A DNA stretch of 64,000 nucleotides. Source: Patescibacteria group bacterium (GTDB taxonomy: Bacteria > Patescibacteriota > Minisyncoccia > 2-02-FULL-40-12 > IGHO2-01-FULL-4-A). A model generated the notes under the pieces. The model did no database searches and was not told the DNA's origin. It saw nothing but the letters and a program-made list of their open reading frames with translations. Shown one piece after another: positions 56,664 through 64,000 of this stretch (positions are counted from its first letter, which is position 1; every line of letters begins with the position of its first letter). The DNA lies in contig JBBTSB010000006.1 in the NCBI GenBank assembly GCA_038064915.1, positions 4,864 to 68,863 on the forward strand, written 5' to 3'. The translations under genes were made by a program, and so were the position numbers.

Positions 56664-58448
56664 TTAGTATCCTGTATTGTTGATCATATCGAACTGTCCT
56701 GCGAGCGTGAGGTAGTCGGCGCGAAGACCGGAATCTACCCAAGCTTCCGCCGCCGCAATAATATCATCAAGCTGTTCCATCGCTCCAAGTCCAAGCAATG
56801 CTTGTGCAGCTGGAGACACGGAATACCACGTGTCCATGTCCTTGCGTCCAGACATCACATCAAGTCGCGTGGAAATGTACTGTGCATAGAACTTGTTCTT
56901 GGCACATTGGGTTGTTGAGAATCCTTTTGAGCAGTTTTTGGTCGCATCATCAATGAGTTTGGTAAGAGAGGCACCCGTTGGAGTGTAACCAGACGGCATA
57001 AGCCAATTTGAGTCATTGTGAATCGTCAACAGCCAAGCTTGCAGGGTCGCTTGAGAGGTTGTCCTGGTGTGGTTTTTCCAGTTTCTCCAATAGCCCTGTG
57101 TTCCCTCGCGATCTTGGAGGTTAACGAAGTTGATACCAGTCATATTTTCACCGCTCATATCAACCACGACATCCTGGCAGAATGTTCCTGACTGTGGCTG
57201 CCATCCTGATTGAATCATTTCGCACACATGGTACGTTCCTGGACCAAGATCTTCAAACGTGTATCCCATGGAAGAGGTGGTGACCAATGAGTCTTCACCC
57301 GCATCCCATGTATCATTGTAAGGAGTTTCATCAATGAAGATCGTCCATGCGGAAAGGCTTGCGCCGTTTGCGTCAAGCTTAAATCCAGTGATGGACACGT
57401 TGTCAAAGTTCCCAAAGTCGACATCGTTTACAACATCGCCAAGTCCGATAGCAATAGGAGACGGATCAGTGGTTGTTTGCGTCCATCCGGTCATTTGGGT
57501 TTCACGGACATTGTAGGTTCCCATGTCCAAATCATCGAATTCATAACTTCCGCTAGCATCAGTCGAAGTTGACGCCATGAATACCATACCAGAATCATAG
57601 AGGTTGATGACCCAATCTTGTAGTCCTGGCTCTCCGGTGTCCCAGCCGCCGTCGCCGTTGATATCTTCAAACTTCATGCCATGGATTTCGCCAGGAATGT
57701 CGTCGTTGGTGACCGTGCAGGTTACATCATCACCTGGAGCTAGAGTTACATCTCCATTGCTGTCGCAGGCGCCACTGTAGCTAGCCATATAATCAGAATC
57801 TGCGTCTTCAGTAACGGTGTAGGTCCCATCTGCCAAAGAAAATTCTGTACCCGGAGCACTTTCACCGGCAAAGTCATTTCCGTCGACATGCAAGGTAAAA
57901 TCTCCAGGAACTGCAGTTCCGCCGTTGTCATTCACCACCACTTTTACCACATGCAAAGTAGCATTTGGGGTAGGAGTTGGCGTGACAGAAGGAGTTGGAG
58001 TCACTACCGGCGTTGCTGATGTTGAAGGTGTTGGCGTTGGTGAGCCTCCTTGGGGGCCAGCAACCTGATAATTGTCCGTCTTGCCGTTTACGTCGGCTTT
58101 ATACTCTCCTGAATCACCGGCGAGAACAGTATATGCGGCAAAACAAAACTTTCCTTGACTATCGGTGAGAATTGATCCAGAAGCCACCAAGGTATTGGGA
58201 TCGGACGAGCTTGGCAAACCAACTACTGACCAATCCAAGGTGGTATCACGAGCAAACCCAGTTCCCGTGATATAAACCACATCGCCTTCCACGTACTGAT
58301 TTTTATTGACCGGGCTTCCGCAACTGCCAGTACTTGTTTTAATGGATCCACCAGCTGCGTGTGCAAACTGCACTGCGCCGCCGACCATTTGTAATACTAC
58401 CGCTGCTATTATGATGCCCGCTGACCAGCTGCTTAAAACTTTCTTCAT
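56664..58448 (-). CDS. Secreted surface protein with SdrD/Cna B-type (prealbumin-fold) repeat domains; adhesin-like
   Basis: Signal peptide. PT-rich linker (SPTPTPSTSATPVVTPTPSVTPTPTP). B-repeat signatures DINGDGGWDTGEPGLQDWVINLYD...TDASGSYEFDDLDMGTYNV. Start taken at MKKVLSS. Confidence 0.55.
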   Translation of the reverse strand: MKKVLSSWSAGIIIAAVVLQMVGGAVQFAHAAGGSIKTSTGSCGSPVNKNQYVEGDVVYITGTGFARDTTLDWSVVGLPSSSDPNTLVASGSILTDSQGKFCFAAYTVLAGDSGEYKADVNGKTDNYQVAGPQGGSPTPTPSTSATPVVTPTPSVTPTPTPNATLHVVKVVVNDNGGTAVPGDFTLHVDGNDFAGESAPGTEFSLADGTYTVTEDADSDYMASYSGACDSNGDVTLAPGDDVTCTVTNDDIPGEIHGMKFEDINGDGGWDTGEPGLQDWVINLYDSGMVFMASTSTDASGSYEFDDLDMGTYNVRETQMTGWTQTTTDPSPIAIGLGDVVNDVDFGNFDNVSITGFKLDANGASLSAWTIFIDETPYNDTWDAGEDSLVTTSSMGYTFEDLGPGTYHVCEMIQSGWQPQSGTFCQDVVVDMSGENMTGINFVNLQDREGTQGYWRNWKNHTRTTSQATLQAWLLTIHNDSNWLMPSGYTPTGASLTKLIDDATKNCSKGFSTTQCAKNKFYAQYISTRLDVMSGRKDMDTWYSVSPAAQALLGLGAMEQLDDIIAAAEAWVDSGLRADYLTLAGQFDMINNTGY

Positions 58449-58774
58449 ATTTATTTTGAACGTGCAGAACAAAACCACTCACATAGTGAGATGGCAAGTA
58501 ACCGCCTTATTCAGTTAAATTAATTAAAAAAACCAATGTTCTATATAGGGTTAACGCATAACTCTACTAATTGTGACGTTCATTAGGGGAAAATGGTTTG
58601 CGGAGAAGTACTAGCCAAAGGAAATAAATTGGTATACGGATTCCAATTTGGGTTTTGAGAGTGCTTGTACCAGGCATAGCCTGCCAACACGGCAACACCA
58701 ATGACGAGCAAAATTACTTGCCAACCAGAAGGAGCGTGGCTTGATCCTTTATCATCTGCCATGTCGTCAGTATG

Positions 58775-59863
58775 CTACAGGATAGTTTTTGTTTCAAGGG
58801 GTGGATGTGTGGATACGGTTTCTATGCGAAACGTAGTCCTGCCGATGAGCTGTCCCCGTTGAGTTTCAATATTCACACGCCACAAACCTGGTGTCGCATT
58901 TGATTTGACTGAATATCCACGGTAGCCATTGTCACGACCGCCAACGATTTCAAACGCCACCCGATTCACCGTAATCCATGTATCCTCAACCTCATCATGA
59001 AATTGCCACTCATGTACGATGGTCGTTTTCAGGTCATTGGGCGCAAACACCGATCCTACGACGTACACGGGTTCACCAGATACCGCGTGGTAAACGTTTC
59101 TGCGTAAAAAACTATACCAATGTCGGACTTCACCTGTAACAACGTAGTCGCTCCCGGTTCTGGAAAGGCTATGGTACACGCCGGCCTCTTTGAGGGCCAA
59201 AGGTATGGGGGGTATGATGTTTGTGAAATAAAGAATATTCAGGAGGAGGTAGATACCGCCGATGCTTGCCATGATCTTTTTTCGGGAATTGTAGATAGCC
59301 TTAGGAAGAAGGTAGCGGAGGAGGTGGAGAAAACCCCACAGTACCACCAGACTGACCAGACCGCTCATGAAAAAAATCTCATCGCCAATTTCACGAAGGA
59401 ATATGGGAATGTAGAGAGCCGCAAATGAGAAAAGGATGAAAAAGTAAATGGTAATGCGAAAGATCAAGATCGCATAGCGAGCCTTGAAGATTTCGTTCCC
59501 GATCAAGAGTCCTGCGAGCACAAGAAAAAATGGCCAGCTGGACGCAAATGATCCGCTTCGCGTATAGAAAATGAAAAATGCGCTGAATAATCCTCCAAAA
59601 GCAAACTGGAGCGTGAGCATCAGCCAAAAGTGCCAATCTTCGTGGGTCTCTCCCCGCTCTCGACGACGATCCAGAACGCTCAAACCAACTATGCAAAGAC
59701 CGGCAAGAATGACGTAGGACGTAAGAACCAGCATGTCATAGAGCTGATCTACTCGTCGCAATGTGAGATTGTCGAACACAAACCCAGTCAAAAGCGTGAT
59801 CGACGAAATATGACGTTCGTAGCGCTCCCATTTTGCTTTAATTGTATGTACGAGCTCCCTCAC
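58775..59863 (-). CDS. Hypothetical polytopic membrane protein with a C-terminal extracytoplasmic domain
   Basis: 362 aa with at least six TM helices in the N-terminal two-thirds. Confidence 0.4.
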   Translation of the reverse strand: MRELVHTIKAKWERYERHISSITLLTGFVFDNLTLRRVDQLYDMLVLTSYVILAGLCIVGLSVLDRRRERGETHEDWHFWLMLTLQFAFGGLFSAFFIFYTRSGSFASSWPFFLVLAGLLIGNEIFKARYAILIFRITIYFFILFSFAALYIPIFLREIGDEIFFMSGLVSLVVLWGFLHLLRYLLPKAIYNSRKKIMASIGGIYLLLNILYFTNIIPPIPLALKEAGVYHSLSRTGSDYVVTGEVRHWYSFLRRNVYHAVSGEPVYVVGSVFAPNDLKTTIVHEWQFHDEVEDTWITVNRVAFEIVGGRDNGYRGYSVKSNATPGLWRVNIETQRGQLIGRTTFRIETVSTHPPLETKTIL

Positions 59864-59867
59864 GGTG

Positions 59868-59940
59868 GGTGAGCGATGGGATTCGAACCCACAACCCTCG
59901 GGACCACAACCCGATGCTCTGCCATTGAGCTACGCCCACC
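59868..59940 (-). tRNA. tRNA-His (anticodon GTG) with genome-encoded G-1
   Basis: Read on the minus strand: acceptor GTGGGCG/CGCTCAC, extra 5' G pairing with discriminator C, D-arm GCTC AATGGCA GAGC, anticodon stem TCGGG/CCCGA with loop TTGTGGT, T-arm GTGGG TTCGAAT CCCAT. Confidence 0.85.
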
Positions 59941-59960
59941 ATATTCGGATGCGCCATTCG

Positions 59961-60656
59961 CTAAGCATATCCACTAAATTCCTCGGTTCTTATATTATCC
60001 TCGTCTACACCCTTTTCGTCAAGGATTCTACGCATGGCGAAGACAAATCCCGGTGGGCCGGCAAGATAGTATCGCACCGAGAGCAAATCACCCAAATGAC
60101 GCGTAAGCATACGTCCGTCCACGCGGCCGCGCTCGTAAGGCCATAAAGTGGAAACTTTGTCGGTGATGGTGGGAATAAGAGCAAAGCGGGAATTTTCTGC
60201 GGCGATATGTTCTAGTTCTTTCAAAAAAGGTGCGGAAGCAATGGTGGTATTAGAGTAAAAAAGATACAATCGATGAGGAAAGTTTTCGCGCGTCGCCGAT
60301 GAGACTATGCTAAGAAAAGGGGTAATACCAATTCCTCCCGCAAGCATTGCAATGCGCTGGGTAAATTTTTTGGGAAGCACAAAGTCTCCGCTGGGACCTT
60401 GGATTCGCACCTTCTCCCCTTTTGTCAAACGACCAAGTTCTTTCTTAAATTCTGAATTCCGCATTCGTGTTGCAATGCGAATGACTGGTTCGTGTGGTGC
60501 GGAAGCGATGGAAAACGTGTAGACCCTCGTTCCCAGGGTCACATCAACCGTTTGTCCGGCAATAAAATCAAACTTGGCTGGTTTTTCAAACTCAAACGCC
60601 ATCGTGTCTTGTGCGATTTCACGCTTAGTTTTTAGTGGCGTTATGAAGCCATTCAT
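59961..60656 (-). CDS. FAD/NAD(P)-binding oxidoreductase (ferredoxin-NADP reductase-like fold)
   Basis: FAD-binding beta-barrel segment, then the NAD-binding motif MLAGGIGITP. Confidence 0.6.
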   Translation of the reverse strand: MNGFITPLKTKREIAQDTMAFEFEKPAKFDFIAGQTVDVTLGTRVYTFSIASAPHEPVIRIATRMRNSEFKKELGRLTKGEKVRIQGPSGDFVLPKKFTQRIAMLAGGIGITPFLSIVSSATRENFPHRLYLFYSNTTIASAPFLKELEHIAAENSRFALIPTITDKVSTLWPYERGRVDGRMLTRHLGDLLSVRYYLAGPPGFVFAMRRILDEKGVDEDNIRTEEFSGYA

Positions 60657-60676
60657 GCTACCATCATGACGTATTT

Positions 60677-60748
60677 GCCCCTGTAGTTCAATGGATAGAA
60701 CAGGAGACTTCTAAGCTCTTAATAGAGGTTCGATTCCTCTCGGGGGCA
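60677..60748 (+). tRNA. tRNA-Arg (anticodon TCT)
   Basis: Acceptor GCCCCTG/CGGGGGC, D-arm GTTC AATGGATA GAAC, anticodon loop CTTCTAA, T-arm AGAGG TTCGATT CCTCT. Confidence 0.75.
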
Positions 60749-60752
60749 CATG

Positions 60753-60823
60753 CGGGCTGTAGTGTAACGGTAGCACGAGACGTTTGGGACGTTTTAGTCC
60801 GAGTTCGAATCTCGGCAGCCCGA
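60753..60823 (+). tRNA. tRNA-Pro (anticodon TGG), C1-G72 acceptor
   Basis: Acceptor CGGGCTG/CAGCCCG, anticodon stem AGACG/CGTTT with loop TTTGGGA, T-arm CCGAG TTCGAAT CTCGG. Its 3' end overlaps the left inverted repeat by 3 nt. Confidence 0.8.
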
Positions 60824-62347
60824 CAAAAAGCAACGTTCGGAAAAATCAGGCTCCGCACTCCGCCGCGCCGAAGGCGCGAATGGAATGGTGGGGGTGAATC
60901 CGGCGAGACTGGAAGCCAAAAATTGAAAGGGTGGGGTGAGAGTCTGGGAGAGGGAGCGGTCGGTAAGTTTTGGGTTCGTTCCGAGTTTTGGCAAAAGTTG
61001 CCTCATCTCGTGATAATTTTCGGAGGAAGCCAGGAAACTGGCTTTTTTCGTGTCCAAAATGAATTGTCTGACGGGTTCGAGCGGATTTGCGGTTGTTTGT
61101 CCATGATCTTGTTTTTGGTCGGCAAGGGAAACTTTCTGTTTCAGCAGCTCTTCCTTTTTAGCAAGATAACTTTCCTTGGGAATATCACCGTCAATATATG
61201 CGCTAACTAATTTATCCAGTTTCTCTTGCGTCTCATGTTGTTTCGCTTTGATGTCTCGGACGAACGACTGTGATGAGTGGACTGATTCCTTTTCTTCCTT
61301 ATCTACTTCCTTGAGCATCCAATCAGTCCACTCATCGGGGAGCGCGATAGATTGAAGCCGTGCCTTAATTTGGAGGACAAGATCTTTTTCTTGGAGGTAC
61401 TTTTGATTACAGAGGCCGCGCTTCTTGGTGCATCGGTAATACCGATAGATACCGCCATGAGCACCCTTTGCCCATTGAGCGGTGATTGGAGAATTACATT
61501 CACCACAGGTCATCATCCCGATAAAGGGAAAGTCATGGCGAATCTTTGATTTGCGCGGCCGGGATCTATCCTTCAATATATCTTGCACGGCTTCAAAAGT
61601 TGTATGATCGAGAATCGGCGGAAACTTTCCTTCGTAGTATTCACCTTTATGAGCGATCAACCCAAGGTACGCTTTGTTCGAGAGCATAATCCTCACATTC
61701 GCTTTTGCAAGTGGCGTTCGGTGTCTAGCCTCAATACCGTAGCCCGCCAAAAACTCTCCCATTGATTCGAGAGTGTACTTTCCGGTCGCATATTCCTTAA
61801 AAGCGCGAAGGATAATTTTGGATAGTGTCGGATGTGGATCAATCGTTCGCGTCTTTGGATTGTTCACGTAGCCAAAGGGGGCTTTGGTGAGCCATTCTCC
61901 GCGACGGAGTTTTTGGCGGATACCACGCTTTACGTTTTCAGAAAGATTATCTGAATAATATTTGGATTGACCGAACGCCACTTGGAGCATGAACAATCCT
62001 TGGGGTGTAGGTTCGAACCAAAATGTCGGAAATCGCAAAGAAACTATCTTGGTGGTATCTATGGCGTAGATGACTTGCCCACCATCAACGGAGTTACGAG
62101 CTAACCTATCTGGATGCCAAGCGAGCAAGCCGACAGGTTCACTTGATGAGGCAACTTTTGCCATCATTTGATTAAAGATTTCTCTGCCTGGTTTCTTTGC
62201 GCTTTTCGACTCGATGAAAGTCTCGGCAATCAAAATATTTTCTCTCTTCGCGTATTCAGTGAGTTCAGCAAGTTGAGCTTCAATACTCATTACTTGCCGT
62301 TCCTCATCTTCCGTAGATTTACGAGCGTAGAGAAAATATTTTGTCAT
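60794..62347 (-). CDS. Large serine recombinase (resolvase/invertase catalytic domain, recombinase domain, zinc ribbon, coiled coil)
   Basis: N-terminus YARKSTEDEERQVMSIEAQ (catalytic Ser region). DRLARN. Zn ribbon CGECNSP...YYRCTKK..C. The C-terminal 57 or so codons lie inside the left inverted repeat. The ORF reads through into the tRNA-Pro 3' end. Confidence 0.8.
   Translation of the reverse strand: MTKYFLYARKSTEDEERQVMSIEAQLAELTEYAKRENILIAETFIESKSAKKPGREIFNQMMAKVASSSEPVGLLAWHPDRLARNSVDGGQVIYAIDTTKIVSLRFPTFWFEPTPQGLFMLQVAFGQSKYYSDNLSENVKRGIRQKLRRGEWLTKAPFGYVNNPKTRTIDPHPTLSKIILRAFKEYATGKYTLESMGEFLAGYGIEARHRTPLAKANVRIMLSNKAYLGLIAHKGEYYEGKFPPILDHTTFEAVQDILKDRSRPRKSKIRHDFPFIGMMTCGECNSPITAQWAKGAHGGIYRYYRCTKKRGLCNQKYLQEKDLVLQIKARLQSIALPDEWTDWMLKEVDKEEKESVHSSQSFVRDIKAKQHETQEKLDKLVSAYIDGDIPKESYLAKKEELLKQKVSLADQKQDHGQTTANPLEPVRQFILDTKKASFLASSENYHEMRQLLPKLGTNPKLTDRSLSQTLTPPFQFLASSLAGFTPTIPFAPSARRSAEPDFSERCFLSGCRDSNSD
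60821..60965. repeat. Left copy of a 145-bp inverted repeat
   Basis: Reverse complement of 62361..62505 with about 95% identity (differences are confined to two short patches). Confidence 0.85.
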
Positions 62348-62360
62348 ACTTTTTTTGTAT

Positions 62361-62505
62361 TACCGACCGCTCCCTCTCCCTGCGATTCACCCCACCCTTT
62401 GAATTTTTGGCTTCCAGTCTCGCCGGATTCACCCCCACCATTCCATTCGCGCCTTCGGCGCGGCGGAGTGCGGAGCCTGATTTTTCCGAACGTTGCTTTT
62501 TGTCG
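62361..62505. repeat. Right copy of a 145-bp inverted repeat
   Basis: See 60821..60965. Encodes a duplicate C-terminal peptide ..FLASSLAGFTPTIPFAPSARRSAEPDFSERCFLS in a spurious plus-strand ORF. Confidence 0.85.
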
Positions 62506-62580
62506 AAAATCTTAAACTTTGTTCGAACTTATCATTCCCCTGATCGTAGCAAAAAACCGTAGAAAAAGGAAACCTAAAAT

Positions 62581-62800
62581 GGTGCGTCCGCCCGTGCGCT
62601 TGCTCGTAGCTCGCGCACGCAGGCCGGAGCGGTTGTATCCGTCTGTTAATGCGCGCGGTGATCTGATTATGGATTGATCCCACCGCTCTGGCCTGCATCG
62701 AGTCTGACTCGATGGGCGGATGCTCTGTTGATGCTCGCTTCGGGCATGGCGGAATTCCACACACACCTTCCGCCATGCCCTCGAGCGAGGGGAGGGGCGT
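62581..62800. ncRNA. Candidate structured RNA / structured GC-rich element (identity unknown)
   Basis: Nested helices: GCGTCCGCCC pairs with GGGCGGATGC; hairpin GTGCGC...GCGCAC; GCAGGCCGGAGCGG pairs with CCGCTCTGGCCTGC; hairpin CATCGAGT-ctg-ACTCGATG; 13-bp helix GGGCATGGCGGAA / TTCCGCCATGCCC extended by CTCGC/GCGAG. Several G-U-compensated pairs. Confidence 0.3.
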
Positions 62801-62853
62801 AAGTTTCAGAAAGCTCTGGAAAGAACACGATTTTAAGAGTAAGCTATACGCAT

Positions 62854-63201
62854 ATGGATAGTAGACTTTCTAAATATACGCTTGACGAGCTCGCAGAAAG
62901 AGTTGAAGGAGGCGGAGATAGTAGCGCTCAAAAAGCCGAACCAATTTTGATTGCCAAAGCCCTTGTTGAGTTACAGCAATCTATTACAACGCTTCAAAAG
63001 CAAATACCTCAAACAGGATCAGAAATCCGAAGCACTATTGGAAGAGTGAGTGAAGAATTATCGGAGACTGTTCGGGGACTCCGAACCGAGATGCAAGCAT
63101 ATTCCGCTTCGAACGATAAGTACGCAACCGCAATGAAGTGGTTGACTGTTGGGTTAGTGGTTGTTGGAGTTGGTCAGGTTATTGTTACGCTTATAAAATA
63201 A
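62854..63201 (+). CDS. Hypothetical coiled-coil protein with a C-terminal TM anchor
   Basis: 115 aa, ending in WLTVGLVVVGVGQVIVTLIK. Confidence 0.35.
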   Translation: MDSRLSKYTLDELAERVEGGGDSSAQKAEPILIAKALVELQQSITTLQKQIPQTGSEIRSTIGRVSEELSETVRGLRTEMQAYSASNDKYATAMKWLTVGLVVVGVGQVIVTLIK

Positions 63202-63206
63202 ATAAG

Positions 63207-63596
63207 ATGCTTGAGCACAAAACTAATAAAGAGAACATCCGTAAATACCTTCGTTGCTTAGAGAGATCGGATTATGAGAATTTGATAGGTCTATTTGCAT
63301 CAAGTGCTATTATCCATTCTCCTTTATATGGAGAAGTTGAAGCAAAAAATTTTTATAAGGATCTATTTAAGGATACAACAAAATCCACCATATCTCTGAA
63401 AGATATTTTTATGAATGAGGATGAGTCCAAAGGAGCGGTAAACTTTCTTTACGATTGGGTTTTAGCGGACGGATCACGAGTCTCTTTTAATTGCGTAGAT
63501 ATTTTCAAATTTAGTTCAGAAGGGAAAATAAAAGAATTAACAATTATCTATGACACTTCGCAAACTCGCCCGAAATTTGATAAAATGAAGTCATGA
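63207..63596 (+). CDS. SnoaL/NTF2-like fold protein
   Basis: 129 aa from MLEHKTNKENIRKYLRCLERSDYENLIGLFASSAIIHSP... (typical N-terminus of ketosteroid-isomerase/SnoaL-like proteins). Composition is AT-rich. Confidence 0.4.
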   Translation: MLEHKTNKENIRKYLRCLERSDYENLIGLFASSAIIHSPLYGEVEAKNFYKDLFKDTTKSTISLKDIFMNEDESKGAVNFLYDWVLADGSRVSFNCVDIFKFSSEGKIKELTIIYDTSQTRPKFDKMKS

Positions 63597-63766
63597 AATG
63601 AGGAGAAAACAGACTTGACTTATTTATTAGAAAGTGATAGTCTTATTTTGTCAAACATTATGAATTCTACCAACCTACAATCAAGCTCATATTACTACTA
63701 TTATTCAACCTCCTCGAGGCTAGTTTTACGGCGTTGAAATAATAGGAATACTCATTTCAAAATCTC

Positions 63767-63797
63767 AAACTGGTCTTAGAGGGGACCAGTTTTTTGT
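63767..63797 (+). terminator. Rho-independent terminator
   Basis: ACTGGTC-ttagaggg-GACCAGT followed by TTTTTT. Confidence 0.75.
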
Positions 63798-63830
63798 TCT
63801 TTCACACCCACCCTCACGAGAGGAGTAACC

Positions 63831-64000
63831 ATGCCATCGGCAAGCAGCTTCAAGTCCGTCAAGGGTCTTCTCAATAAGCTCCGGGATGAAGTGTGCCCGA
63901 GCTCTCCCAAGAAAAAGGGAAAGCACGAGTTCAATACGACGGGATGCCAAGGTTCCTGGCATCACAACGATCAGGGCGGCCCGATCTACAGCCACCAGTC
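63831..64000 (+). CDS. Hypothetical protein, 3'-truncated by the window edge; GC-rich with a canonical RBS
   Basis: GAGAGGAGTAACC then ATG. Translates as MPSASSFKSVKGLLNKLRDEVCPSSPKKKGKHEF... The overlapping minus-strand ORF 63765..63995 has no RBS. Confidence 0.3.
   Translation, partial: MPSASSFKSVKGLLNKLRDEVCPSSPKKKGKHEFNTTGCQGSWHHNDQGGPIYSHQ

What the first reader, a model, noticed from the sequence alone, without database searches (positions are those of the whole stretch)
60753..62505. Large serine recombinase gene exactly bracketed by near-identical 145-bp inverted repeats, abutting the 3' end of tRNA-Pro
The left repeat (60821..60965) is the reverse complement of the right repeat (62361..62505), with only two short divergent patches. 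Between them sits a single 517-aa large serine recombinase gene whose last ~57 codons are inside the left repeat. The right repeat therefore carries an inverted ghost copy of the gene's 3' end (spurious ORF 62341..62562). The left repeat starts at the last 3 nt of tRNA-Pro, directly downstream of tRNA-Arg. Terminal inverted repeats this long around a lone serine recombinase do not fit standard IS families: IS607/Tn4451-type elements lack them, and hix-type invertase sites are about 26 bp. One explanation is a self-contained inverton, where recombination between the repeats flips the recombinase together with any outward-reading promoter. The other is a tRNA-targeted integrative element whose recombinase C-terminus was duplicated. 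The GC-rich structured region immediately to the right (62581..62800) may be cargo of the same element.
Basis: seen in the sequence. Interest (0 to 1): 0.8.

Follow-up and report, generated by a model that had tools for sequence, protein, structure and literature searches.

The report
tRNA-integrated serine-recombinase element with twin sites
The inverted repeat is real and marks one end of a small mobile element, common in Patescibacteria (CPR bacteria) and not described in the papers I searched, that inserts at the last bases of tRNA genes. Its recombinase gene lies between two inverted copies of its own attachment site, so the protein's last residues depend on which flank the gene's end touches.

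Summary
Two 146-nt arms (60821-60966 and 62360-62505, 96% complementary) bracket a 517-aa large serine recombinase gene. The left arm starts in the last 3-4 nt of tRNA-Pro.

It is a family trait, not an artefact. About 72 of 80 homologous loci from Patescibacteria MAGs carry the same 90-190-nt repeat. In about 50 of them the arm at the gene's 3' end overlaps a convergent tRNA gene of many different specificities by 3-5 nt.

The flank outside the other arm (window 62506-62562, called F here) is conserved. It continues the reading frame into a conserved C-terminal peptide (..ILNFARTxFE..). Relatives with longer flanks have a second, inverted F copy 1.4-3.6 kb away. Comparing the three sites (tRNA|arm, arm|F, D|F, where D is unrelated flanking DNA) leaves only a 3-6-nt shared core. 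That is the pattern of attL and attR plus an extra intact attP-like site.

The repeat is therefore a duplicated, inverted attachment-site module, not the element's termini. The element runs past the window's end. Both gene orientations occur among near-identical relatives. Whether this comes from flipping in place or from integration through either site is unresolved.

I rate it a new variant of a known kind, interest about 0.6.

The parts
60677..60749 (+). tRNA-Arg(tct). Host context, 3 nt upstream of tRNA-Pro.
   Evidence: ARAGORN; Rfam 65 bits. The same tRNA-Arg/tRNA-Pro pair precedes the element in L083/L085.
60753..60824 (+). tRNA-Pro(tgg), the integration target. It is the outer (attB-type) half of the attL-like junction. 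Its T-loop GTTCG (60803-60807) begins 18 nt from the arm boundary.
   Evidence: In about 50 of 80 homologous loci a convergent tRNA overlaps the 3'-side arm by 3-5 nt. The motif spacing was measured in 49 loci.
60821..60824 (.). Left copy of the short core (CGAC) shared by the tRNA end and the arm; inferred crossover region.
   Evidence: Three-site comparison in 10 relatives leaves only a 3-6-nt overlap, for example CGACAA in L083 at the same tRNA site. The 100% identity between L081 and L100 stops exactly at CGAC.
60821..60966 (-). Left arm. It encodes recombinase residues 461-509 and carries a GC hairpin (stem CGCGCC, loop GAA, stem GGCGCG, about 60863-60877).
   Evidence: 52 of 68 arms carry a perfect hairpin with a stem of at least 6 bp, against 6.3 expected.
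60794..62347 (-). Large serine recombinase CDS, 517 aa, identical to NCBI MEK7616052.1. The last 8 codons are antisense tRNA-Pro.
   Evidence: Pfam: 77.9, 43.7 and 36.5 bits. Distantly related to SPbeta integrase, E = 7e-7. P0121 is identical.
62360..62505 (+). Right arm, the inner half of an intact attP-like site. It lies 13 nt upstream of the start codon. Read on the + strand it repeats the C-terminal coding region.
   Evidence: About 72 of 80 loci have the equivalent upstream arm.
62502..62505 (.). Right copy of the core (GTCG on the + strand).
62506..62562 (+). Flank motif F. It is the outer (attP-type) half-site and also an alternative in-frame C-terminal tail, KILNFVRTYHSPDRSKKP followed by a stop. 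Its CGAAC motif (62524-62528) starts 19 nt from the boundary.
   Evidence: The tail is in frame in 53 of 65 loci. Conservation is codon-like but the CGA/CGAAC is invariant. The motif sits 5-6 nt further out than on the tRNA side. The L094 contig ends at 62555, which implies a repeat starting at the core.
62563..62800 (.). GC-rich structured part of the repeated module, including the hairpin at 62741-62781. Function unknown.
   Evidence: Folding z-scores are -7.4 (+ strand) and -5.7 (- strand). The hairpin motif occurs once in the window and otherwise only inside F modules of relatives, in both proximal and distal copies. In relatives, F plus the GC-rich stretch forms a second inverted repeat of 97-208 nt.
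62854..64000 (+). Probable cargo (115-aa ORF 62854-63201 and SnoaL-like ORF, listed as 63138-63596), running to the window's end. The distal end of the element is not in the window.
   Evidence: Inferred from the position of cargo in relatives. Only one F motif is found in the window. Pfam hit to SnoaL_2.

Best explanation
The region is the tRNA-proximal end of an integrated mobile element from a large family specific to Patescibacteria (CPR bacteria). Its large serine recombinase integrates the element at the extreme 3' end of tRNA genes. The crossover lies within a 3-6-nt core made of the acceptor end, the discriminator base and, where encoded, CCA, so the tRNA stays intact.

The recombinase gene sits between two inverted copies of its own attachment-site module. 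Each module consists of the arm, the core, the flank motif F and a GC-rich stretch. In the window, integration has split the left copy into tRNA|arm, which is attL-like. The right copy, arm|F, is an intact attP-like site. The matching attR-like junction F|D (D being unrelated flanking DNA) should lie beyond a 1.4-3.6-kb cargo, past position 64000. The 146-nt inverted repeat is therefore the inner half of a duplicated site module that also carries the gene's last ~50 codons.

Because the site overlaps the gene's 3' end, the protein's C-terminus depends on its context. Next to F it ends in a conserved ~12-18-residue tail. Next to the tRNA, as in the window, that tail is replaced by antisense-tRNA residues.

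Shown: the anatomy, the family-wide conservation, the short shared core, the two classes of tail, and exchange exactly at the core. Inferred: that the recombinase reads the T-loop GTTCG and a mimic of it in F placed 5-6 bp further out; that the element excises as a circle carrying two inverted attP-like sites; and that losing or regaining the tail regulates activity or directionality.
For: The repeat is a family trait. About 72 of 80 loci have arms of 90-190 nt, mostly 97-100% identical.

A convergent tRNA abuts the 3'-side arm with a 3-5-nt overlap in about 50 loci. The tRNAs include Ala, Arg, Gln, Glu, Gly, Leu, Lys, Met, Phe, Pro, Ser and Val.

The flank F outside the 5'-side arm is conserved, and it is in frame with the C-terminus in 53 of 65 loci. 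Its information content by codon position is 1.13, 1.30 and 0.82, with synonymous Leu, Ile, Ala, Thr and Glu codons, yet CGAAC is invariant.

A distal inverted F copy lies 1.4-3.6 kb away in every locus checked that has enough flank (L002, L005, L006, L025, L035, L060, L068, L072, L076, L082-84, L088). The three-site comparison leaves a 3-6-nt common core.

CGAAC starts 14 nt from the boundary on the tRNA side and 19-20 nt on the F side, a difference of 5-6 nt. This matches the 5-bp shift of the zinc-ribbon-domain motif between attB and attP reported in PMC3783163.

L081 and L100 share a 1,504-nt inner segment at 100% identity. The identity ends exactly at CGAC. Outside it is tRNA-Pro(cgg) in L081 and F in L100.

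Among 120 cluster representatives about 22 carry the F tail. Within 90%-identity clusters, both tail classes and several different tRNA-derived tails co-occur.

Cargo between the two F copies varies between loci. The other assembly of this genome breaks 50 nt past the core, as expected if F is repeated in the genome.
Against: No empty attB site was found; one 30-mer scan for L083 gave 0 hits. No circular form was demonstrated, since L091, L093 and L095 have no terminal overlap. The window contains only two of the three sites, so its own distal boundary is inferred from relatives.

Canonical large serine integrases need only ~50 bp of attP. The model does not explain why ~90-190 nt of arm plus ~100-200 nt of GC-rich sequence are kept near-identical in two inverted copies.

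Some loci (L088/L089, L093) carry three module copies, so the architecture may be more complex than attL plus attP plus attR.

Orientation calls rest on short-read assemblies, in which perfect repeats longer than k can be mis-threaded.
Confidence: 0.75

Rival explanations
1. In-place inverton, which could coexist with the best explanation. The arm-bounded recombinase segment flips within the integrated element, either through the recombinase acting at the two cores or through RecA-type recombination between the long arms. Flipping would toggle the gene between a tRNA-convergent state with a junk tail (the window) and a state co-directional with the tRNA that carries the conserved tail. The second state might be the active one and might prime excision.
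For: Two tRNA-adjacent loci are in the flipped state, with the tRNA immediately upstream on the same strand (L081, L090). L081 and L087 occupy the same PolyA_pol/tRNA-Pro(cgg) context in opposite orientations. L093 and L095, whose genes are at least 90% identical, have the same F1 flank on opposite sides of the gene. The unused tail keeps coding-type conservation in loci oriented like the window. Arms within a genome are 96-100% identical, whereas arms at the same tRNA site in different genomes barely align, which points to concerted evolution. L097 and L101 show the same arm-IS junction attached to a tRNA in one and to F in the other.
Against: Every flipped case can also be produced by integration through the other attP-like copy. 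L100 and L081 fit that reading, because their F flanks are only ~86% identical although the inner segment is 100% identical. The ratio of roughly 50 loci oriented like the window to 2 flipped is far from an equilibrating switch. The exact protein P0005, with its tRNA-derived tail, recurs on 15 contigs from several samples, so that orientation is stable. Canonical serine integrases do not recombine attL with attP or attP with attP (PMC3783163, abstract). No sample was shown to contain both orientations.
Confidence: 0.35
2. Autonomous IS-like transposon whose true termini are the 146-nt arms. The recombinase would act as a transposase, moving only the 1.7-kb arm-to-arm unit into tRNA ends.
For: The arm-to-arm unit (its 5' arm and all but about 240 nt of the gene) is 100% identical in two different contexts (L081 and L100). 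Many homologues sit on ~2-kb contigs.
Against: The DNA outside the 5'-side arm is not random target DNA. It is the conserved F motif, in frame with the gene in 53 of 65 loci, followed by a conserved GC-rich module and a distal inverted copy. No tRNA directly abutting F, which would be the 'empty target', was seen in 100 loci. The short contigs are explained by assemblies breaking at the repeated modules.
Confidence: 0.07
3. Assembly artefact, or a chance local duplication of the gene's 3' end with no function.
For: None beyond the fact that all the data are short-read metagenome assemblies.
Against: Two assemblies of the same genome agree. About 72 of 80 loci from different MAGs and studies have the repeat at the same position, with lineage-specific sequence. 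Shuffles give 0 expected copies.
Confidence: 0.01

Closest known systems
Phage and ICE large serine integrases (phiC31, Bxb1, A118/LI, SPbeta SprA)
   Same: Same three-domain protein with a coiled-coil insert. Attachment sites share only a short core. The outer half-sites carry the same motif, shifted 5-6 bp between the bacterial (tRNA) side and the element (F) side, as described for the zinc-ribbon-domain motif in attB versus attP (PMC3783163).
   Different: At most ~25% identical to any annotated phage integrase, and E = 7e-7 to SPbeta integrase. The target is the extreme 3' end of many different tRNA genes. The site overlaps the recombinase's own 3' coding end. The site module is ~250-330 nt long and present in two inverted copies flanking the gene. 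No recombination directionality factor was identified.
SSV-type 'suicidal' integrases of archaeal viruses and plasmids (SSV1, pTN3, pT26-2)
   Same: The att site lies inside the integrase's own gene, and in the best-known case (SSV1) the target is a tRNA gene (the tRNA target is from my own knowledge; the review passages read give only 'specific chromosomal loci'). Integration changes the gene product, which offers a built-in control of directionality (PMC8371274).
   Different: Those enzymes are tyrosine recombinases, and integration splits the gene into two parts. The review describes them as exclusive to archaea. Here a bacterial serine recombinase loses only its last ~12-18 residues, and a second intact site copy remains.
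Integration-dependent immunity of mycobacteriophage BPs and relatives
   Same: attP lies inside a coding sequence, so the integrated and free forms encode proteins with different C-termini and different properties (PMC4557955).
   Different: There the affected gene is the repressor, and the lost tail is an ssrA-like degradation tag. Here the affected gene is the recombinase itself, and the tail's function is unknown.
Invertible-segment systems (Hin/Gin/Pin invertases, shufflons) and the yeast 2-micron plasmid FLP/FRT flip-flop
   Same: A recombinase gene is associated with inverted sites. Both orientation isomers are observed. There are alternative C-terminal coding ends, as in the Gin/Cin tail-fibre switches and in shufflons. 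The inferred free form has two unique segments separated by two long inverted repeats, as in the 2-micron plasmid. This comparison rests on my own knowledge of those systems.
   Different: This enzyme is a large serine recombinase, not a small invertase with a C-terminal helix-turn-helix domain, nor the tyrosine recombinases Rci and FLP. Its repeats are 146 nt or longer, against ~26-bp hix sites. The element is integrated at a tRNA and carries variable cargo. Flipping in place is not demonstrated.
Serine-recombinase transposons (Tn4451/Tn5397 with TnpX/TndX; IS607)
   Same: A serine recombinase is the only mobility gene of a small element, and closely related recombinases are found at several different targets.
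   Different: IS607 transposases are small and have an N-terminal DNA-binding domain. From my own knowledge, Tn4451-type elements lack long terminal repeats and do not target tRNA ends. Here the long repeats are internal site duplications, not termini.

Membership tests
Large serine recombinase (LSR) | N-terminal resolvase-type catalytic domain with a serine nucleophile | tested here: met
   PF00239 scores 77.9 bits against a cut-off of 23.3, over residues 5-152. The Y-A-R-K-S-T motif occupies residues 7-12, with R9 and S11 at least 90% conserved in the 21-sequence alignment and invariant among the 18 F-tail proteins.
Large serine recombinase (LSR) | Recombinase domain plus zinc-ribbon domain with a coiled-coil insert | tested here: met
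   PF07508 scores 43.7 bits and PF13408 scores 36.5 bits, both above their cut-offs. The Cys residues C281, C284, C306 and C313 are invariant. The AF2 model of the 90%-identical homologue P0001 has long helices at 338-385 and 391-417. The phmmer match to SPbeta integrase covers residues 3-413.
Serine-integrase integrative element (attP x attB giving attL + attR) | The element's junctions and the attP-type site share only a short core containing the crossover | tested here: met
   Met in 10 relatives, with cores of 3-6 nt, and by the L081/L100 breakpoint. In the window itself only tRNA|arm and arm|F are visible; the distal junction lies outside the window.
Serine-integrase integrative element (attP x attB giving attL + attR) | The distal DNA-binding motif lies ~5 bp closer to the centre in attB than in attP half-sites | tested here: met
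   CGAAC starts at nt 14 on the tRNA side (42 of 48 loci) and at nt 19-20 in F. The difference is 5 nt in 18 loci and 6 nt in 30. Reference: PMC3783163. That the protein actually binds these motifs is inferred.
Serine-integrase integrative element (attP x attB giving attL + attR) | An unoccupied attB and an excised circular form exist | tested here: inconclusive
   One empty-site 30-mer for L083 gave 0 hits in JGI metagenomes. Contigs with F on both sides show no terminal overlap. Neither search was exhaustive.
Serine-integrase integrative element (attP x attB giving attL + attR) | A recombination directionality factor controls excision | not tested
   Cargo ORFs are variable and none was examined as a candidate.
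DNA invertase / inverton (Hin, Gin, Pin type) | Small serine recombinase (~190 aa) with a C-terminal helix-turn-helix domain | tested here: not met
   The protein has 517 aa and the LSR domain set.
DNA invertase / inverton (Hin, Gin, Pin type) | Short (~26 bp) inverted crossover sites bounding the segment | tested here: not met
   The arms are 146 nt here and 90-190 nt in relatives. Only their outer ~16 nt are conserved between loci.
DNA invertase / inverton (Hin, Gin, Pin type) | Both orientations coexist in one population | tested here: inconclusive
   Orientation isomers are seen between samples (L081 vs L087 and L100; L093 vs L095), but never within one sample. No reads are available.
IS607-family serine transposon | Small serine transposase with an N-terminal MerR-like DNA-binding domain; no terminal repeats | tested here: not met
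   The catalytic domain is N-terminal and the C-terminal domains are of LSR type.
SSV-type suicidal integrase | Tyrosine recombinase catalytic fold | tested here: not met
   Only serine-recombinase domains are found. The resemblance lies in the logic (att site within its own gene, tRNA target), not in ancestry.

The most novel reading that the evidence does not exclude
A new class of minimal serine-recombinase element in CPR bacteria whose free form has two unique segments (recombinase and cargo) separated by two long inverted attachment-site modules. Its recombinase would rewrite its own C-terminus, by integration or by flipping, to set directionality. With the conserved tail it would be active and mobile. 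With the tail replaced by tRNA antisense it would be locked in. The tail's coding sequence would double as a mimic of the tRNA T-loop that the enzyme itself reads, so that a single protein could target essentially any tRNA gene.
Probability: 0.3. Interest if true: 0.8.

Novelty: new variant of a known kind. Interest (0 to 1): 0.62.

Why it matters
CPR/Patescibacteria have tiny genomes, and few of their mobile elements have been characterised. This family is abundant: at least 592 hits in a one-genome-per-species collection, and more than 120 protein clusters at 57-90% identity. It carries variable cargo such as transporters, hydrolases, and methylase or restriction-type genes, so it is probably a significant route of gene flux in these bacteria.

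Mechanistically, it is a bacterial serine-recombinase counterpart of the archaeal 'att site inside its own gene' logic. It would be a natural case of a serine integrase aimed at the universal tRNA T-loop and acceptor end. Its twin inverted sites around the recombinase gene resemble engineered cassette-exchange and latch designs. If the tail really gates activity, it would be a way of controlling directionality without a separate directionality factor, which would interest people who build integrase tools.

On the practical side, the nested inverted repeats explain why many CPR contigs end at these genes.

Tried and rejected
1. Rfam scan of 58000-64000 at E <= 1 found only the three tRNAs and a sub-threshold group II intron fragment. 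The GC-rich region matches no described RNA family.

2. The sigma-70 promoter and terminator scan of 60500-63300 found no more hits than in shuffles, so it says nothing about how the gene is expressed.

3. Looking up the window protein by exact sequence found nothing on record. Its twin contig L094 ends at 62555. The distal end of the window's own element could therefore not be reached.

4. An empty-site 30-mer for L083 gave 0 hits in metagenome contigs.

5. AlphaFold2 of a protein carrying the conserved tail, with an 18-sequence alignment, gave mean pLDDT 63.8 and below 50 for residues 456-528. It is uninformative about the tail, so no fold search was run.

6. Searches of annotated phages and plasmids found only distant integrases below 30% identity. 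IMG/VR gave a single 39% relative. There is no sign that the free form is a known phage or plasmid.

7. Literature searches for this element in Patescibacteria/CPR found nothing.

8. I considered that F is conserved only as a DNA-binding site. I rejected this as the sole explanation because of the synonymous-codon pattern, but kept it as a joint constraint because the Arg codon is always CGA.

9. I considered the 25-nt internal repeat (60989-61013 and 62139-62163) as part of the system. I dropped it because it is absent from the closest relatives.

10. I considered that the 'solo arms' in L097-L102 mean the arms are cassette boundaries. They are explained better by an IS5-like insertion and by decay.
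Full report
**1. The observation.**
The window holds an inverted repeat with arms at 60821-60966 and 62360-62505. It is 146 nt long, 96% complementary, with 1393 nt between the arms. The arms differ at 60925 and in a patch at 60941-60946 and nowhere else. A 35-mer from the arm occurs only at these two places in 64 kb, against 0.00 expected. tRNA-Arg(tct) is at 60677-60749 and tRNA-Pro(tgg) at 60753-60824, both on the + strand, so the left arm begins in the last 3-4 nt of tRNA-Pro. Between the arms lies ORF 60794..62347 (minus strand, 517 aa), which has Resolvase, Recombinase and Zn_ribbon_recom domains all above the Pfam cut-offs. Its closest solved relative is the SPbeta integrase, at E = 7e-7 over residues 3-413. 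Residues 461-509 are encoded by the left arm, and the last eight codons read antisense through tRNA-Pro. The protein is identical to NCBI MEK7616052.1 from a Patescibacteria MAG. A second assembly of the same genome, L094, is 99.99% identical and contains both arms.

**2. The repeat is a family trait.**
The recombinase belongs to a very large family. More than 120 cluster representatives are 57-90% identical to it, and the named ones are Parcubacteria/CPR lineages. A scan of one genome per species gave at least 592 confirmed loci, of which I took the best 80. In about 72 of these 80, an inverted repeat of 90-190 nt has one arm 40-200 nt upstream of the start codon and the other arm over the last ~50 codons. 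Arm identity is mostly 97-100%. In about 50 loci the outer end of the 3'-side arm overlaps the 3' end of a convergent tRNA gene by 3-5 nt. The tRNAs include Ala, Arg, Gln, Glu, Gly, Leu, Lys, Met, Phe, Pro, Ser and Val. L083/L085, whose recombinase is 75% identical, sit at the same tRNA-Arg(tct)/tRNA-Pro(tgg) pair as the window.

**3. The flank outside the other arm is part of the system.**
The ~30-45 nt outside the 5'-side arm are conserved between loci regardless of which tRNA is involved. I call this flank F. I read the reverse complement of the upstream arm plus flank in the frame of the real C-terminus. In 53 of 65 loci with enough flank, the frame runs on into a conserved peptide (..W.[ILV]L..[AV]RT.F[EQ]..) and stops 12-20 codons later. 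Most of the failures are indels in the arms that break my frame mapping. In the window this is the 'ghost' ORF 62341..62562, which ends ..CFLSKILNFVRTYHSPDRSKKP*. Conservation in F looks like coding sequence: information content by codon position is 1.13, 1.30 and 0.82, with synonymous Leu, Ile, Ala, Thr and Glu codons. However, the Arg codon is essentially always CGA, and CGAAC is invariant. CGAAC is the reverse complement of the tRNA T-loop GTTCG. F is therefore under both a coding constraint and a DNA-site constraint.

**4. Two classes of C-terminus.**
Among the 120 representatives, most tails are antisense-tRNA translations (..SGCRDSNP....WESNPV.. and similar). About 22 end with the F-encoded tail. 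Within single 90%-identity clusters, both classes and several different tRNA-derived tails co-occur; about 20 of 106 complete tails are of the F type.

Contigs of F-tail proteins are of two kinds.
- tRNA immediately upstream of the 5' arm and on the same strand as the gene, with F after the 3' arm: L081 at tRNA-Pro(cgg) and L090 at tRNA-Ala(tgc). I had predicted this arrangement before fetching L090.
- F on both sides of the gene and no tRNA: L089, L091/L092 and L093.

**5. Where the element ends.**
In the eleven loci checked that have enough flank on the cargo side, a second F copy lies 1.4-3.6 kb away in the opposite orientation: L002, L005, L006, L025, L035, L060, L068, L072, L076, L082-84 and L088. 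F plus the adjoining GC-rich stretch forms a second inverted repeat of 97-208 nt around one to three variable cargo genes. The cargo includes an SSF transporter, HAD hydrolases, a Dam methylase with a LexA-like repressor, and an M64 peptidase.

I aligned the three junctions of each element: tRNA|arm, arm|F (proximal) and D|F (distal, where D is unrelated flanking DNA). The stretches of identity overlap only in a 3-6-nt core: CCACCA in L005, CGACAA in L083, GGACAC in L025, CCGCAA in L072 and TCA in L076. This is the signature of site-specific integration, with tRNA|arm as attL and F|D as attR. The unusual addition is an intact arm|F site, of attP type, inside the element in inverted orientation.

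The window contains only one F (62506-62562). The alternative assembly L094 stops at 62555, about one k-mer past the core. That implies the sequence from ~62501 onward is repeated elsewhere in the genome. The window's distal junction should therefore lie beyond position 64000.

**6. Exchange exactly at the core.**
Searching metagenomes with a 32-mer from the arm recovered L100. It shares 1,504 nt (all but about 240 nt of the gene, plus the whole 5' arm) at 100% identity with L081. The identity ends precisely at CGAC. Outside the core, L081 has the 3' end of tRNA-Pro(cgg), whereas L100 has an F flank almost identical to the window's. In L081 the outer ~40 nt of the two arms differ from each other, so this cannot be a mis-threaded repeat. 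It is the most direct evidence that recombination joins an arm|F site to a tRNA end at the core.

**7. Half-site geometry.**
In 49 loci, CGAAC (T-loop antisense) starts 14 nt from the arm boundary on the tRNA side (42 of 48 scored). The CGAAC of F starts at 19-20 nt. The difference is 5 nt in 18 loci and 6 nt in 30. Rutherford et al. showed that serine integrases read the same zinc-ribbon-domain motif 5 bp closer to the centre in attB than in attP (PMC3783163). The tRNA side therefore looks like a B-type half-site and F like a P-type one. This is inference. It would explain how one family can use many different tRNAs, and why the tail's Arg-Thr codons are frozen as CGA-AC.

Inside the arm, only the outer ~16 nt are conserved between loci (cCACAaaaa.AaACTT). 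That is also where the two arms of a locus almost never differ: 0.4% mismatches against 1.6-4% elsewhere.

**8. What the inverted repeat is.**
Taken together, the recombinase gene is bracketed by two inverted copies of a ~250-330-nt module consisting of the GC-rich stretch, F, the core and the arm. In L089 the whole module is a perfect 273-nt inverted repeat. Integration through the copy at the gene's 3' end produces the window's arrangement: tRNA|arm, gene, arm|F, GC-rich stretch, cargo, GC-rich stretch, F|D. The 146-nt repeat is the inner part of that module. It is long because it also carries the gene's last ~50 codons. In 52 of 68 arms it also contains a perfect GC hairpin whose stem sequence differs between lineages, against 6.3 expected. 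The reason the two copies stay near-identical is not explained by site recognition alone.

**9. Orientation: flipping or alternative integration.**
Both orientations of the arm-bounded segment exist among close relatives.
- L081 versus L087 in the same PolyA_pol/tRNA-Pro(cgg) context.
- L093 versus L095 (genes at least 90% identical), with the same F1 flank on opposite sides of the gene.
- L097 versus L101, with the same arm-IS junction attached to a tRNA in one and to F in the other.

The coding-type conservation of F in loci where it is not attached to the gene means that the F-joined form is visited regularly. This fits recurrent inversion. It fits equally well a cycle of excision and re-integration through either site copy. 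The L081/L100 pair fits the second reading, because their F flanks are only ~86% identical.

The window's orientation is heavily favoured: about 50 tRNA-adjacent loci against 2 examined loci in the flipped state. It is also stable across samples, since the exact P0005 protein occurs on 15 contigs. I therefore treat flipping in place as plausible (about 0.35) but unproven. Assemblies with perfect arms longer than k could in principle be mis-oriented. The strong bias and the cases with diverged arms argue that most calls are right.

**10. How it most likely works.**
Shown: an LSR element that sits at tRNA 3' ends, with a crossover in a 3-6-nt core, a site that overlaps the gene's end, two tail classes and variable cargo.

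Inferred:
- The free form is a circle in which the gene reads across an arm|F site and makes the full-length protein.
- Integration through that site swaps the conserved tail for tRNA antisense. This may reduce or alter activity and stabilise the insertion. The logic parallels SSV-type 'suicidal' integrases (PMC8371274) and the integration-dependent immunity of phage BPs (PMC4557955).
- Re-joining the gene to F, by excision or by flipping, restores the tail.

The AlphaFold model gave no usable information on residues 456-528, where pLDDT is below 50.

**11. The GC-rich region.**
Positions 62563-62800 fold far better than shuffles, with z = -7.4 on the + strand and -5.7 on the - strand, and match no Rfam family. 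The terminal hairpin (62741-62781; motif GGCGGRA..TYCCGCC) occurs once in the window, against 0.01 expected. In relatives it occurs only inside F modules, in both proximal and distal copies. Its C-rich loop points either way in different lineages. It belongs to the repeated module. Its role (terminator or insulator, accessory site, or RNA) is unknown.

**12. Comparison and novelty.**
The protein is a bona fide LSR but is remote from characterised ones, with below 30% identity to anything in annotated phages or plasmids. I found no paper describing this element. The large LSR survey I checked mentions neither tRNA targets nor Patescibacteria. It works like a serine-integrase integrative element. 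It is not a Hin-type inverton, an IS607- or Tn4451-type transposon, or a shufflon. The new features are tRNA-end targeting through an apparent T-loop mimic, a site inside the gene's own 3' end that gives context-dependent C-termini, and twin inverted site modules around the recombinase. I rate it a new variant of a known kind, with interest 0.62.

**13. Caveats.**
- No empty site or circular form was found.
- The window's distal end is inferred from relatives.
- Some loci have three module copies (L088/L089, L093), so the architecture may extend to arrays.
- All of the data are short-read assemblies.

Noticed in passing
window 62563-62800 (hairpin 62741-62781): A very stable GC-rich structure (z = -7.4 and -5.7) with no Rfam match. 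Its terminal hairpin, a 13-bp GC stem with a C/A-rich 13-nt loop, recurs only inside the F modules of related elements. The loop points in either orientation in different lineages (C-rich in the window, L005, L025 and L072; G-rich in L002, L006, L017, L035, L055 and L080).
   Followed up: partly
window 60863-60877 and 62449-62463; arms of L001-L080: Each arm carries a perfect GC-rich hairpin (stem CGCGCC, loop GAA, stem GGCGCG in the window). 52 of 68 arms have one, against 6.3 expected from shuffles. Stem sequences differ between lineages, so the structure is conserved rather than the sequence, even though it lies inside the coding region for the recombinase C-terminus.
   Followed up: partly
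window 60989-61013 and 62139-62163: A 25-nt inverted repeat (23 of 25 matching) lies inside the recombinase gene, built around the palindrome GGCAAAAGTTGCC. By my own rough estimate (no tool run) it is far beyond chance for this region, but it is absent from the closest relatives (L081, L083, L086, L087).
   Followed up: partly
L097 1-880; L101 2489-3186; L102: An IS5-like element (120-aa ORF that looks by eye like the DUF4096 N-terminal region of IS4/IS5-family transposases; no domain search run) is inserted about 4 nt inside the arm's inner end, disrupting the recombinase. The same arm-IS junction is attached to tRNA-Pro(ggg) in one contig and to the F flank in others.
   Followed up: partly
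L098 1-130; L099 207-435: Decayed remnants are present: an arm plus ~30 nt of the frameshifted 3' end of the gene next to tRNA-Pro(ggg), with no recombinase gene. Old insertions therefore erode in place.
   Followed up: no
L087 3417-4280: In this relative the upstream arm lies 735 nt from the recombinase start, and a 178-aa NYN-domain ORF sits inside the arm-bounded segment. The arms are only 86% identical.
   Followed up: no
L040 1832-1905; L090 4543-4617: ARAGORN calls tRNAs with anticodon TTA (reported as 'tRNA-Stop'). In L040 this tRNA is the integration target. It may be a suppressor tRNA or a miscall.
   Followed up: no
L088 1711-3239; L093 1-126, 3587-3712 and 5642-5691; L089 1-273: Some elements carry three copies of the F/GC-rich module in alternating orientation, bracketing separate cargo segments (a 368-aa ORF; an MmeI-like restriction-modification gene). 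This hints at array-like or multi-cassette organisation.
   Followed up: partly
L083 2255-2316 and 12564; L049 8403: Additional F-like motifs lie away from the recombinase (LSGLVDDVRTYFMNT.. in L083; YLLDKVRNYFELNPD in L049). The D flank of L083 contains a terminator hairpin preceded by a tRNA-like 3' end. These may be relics of other insertions.
   Followed up: no
window 62555 (end of contig L094): The alternative assembly of the same genome (ENA ERZ1292627, 67,180 nt) ends 50 nt past the right arm. Many homologues lie on ~2-kb contigs or at contig ends. These nested inverted repeats seem to be a systematic cause of contig breaks in CPR assemblies.
   Followed up: partly
window 62854-63596: The first ORFs beyond the module are a 115-aa protein with a C-terminal hydrophobic stretch (weak DUF7521 hit) and a SnoaL-like protein. 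They would be the element's cargo if the architecture matches that of relatives. Close relatives (L100, L101) carry a different 539-aa cargo gene behind an almost identical F flank.
   Followed up: partly
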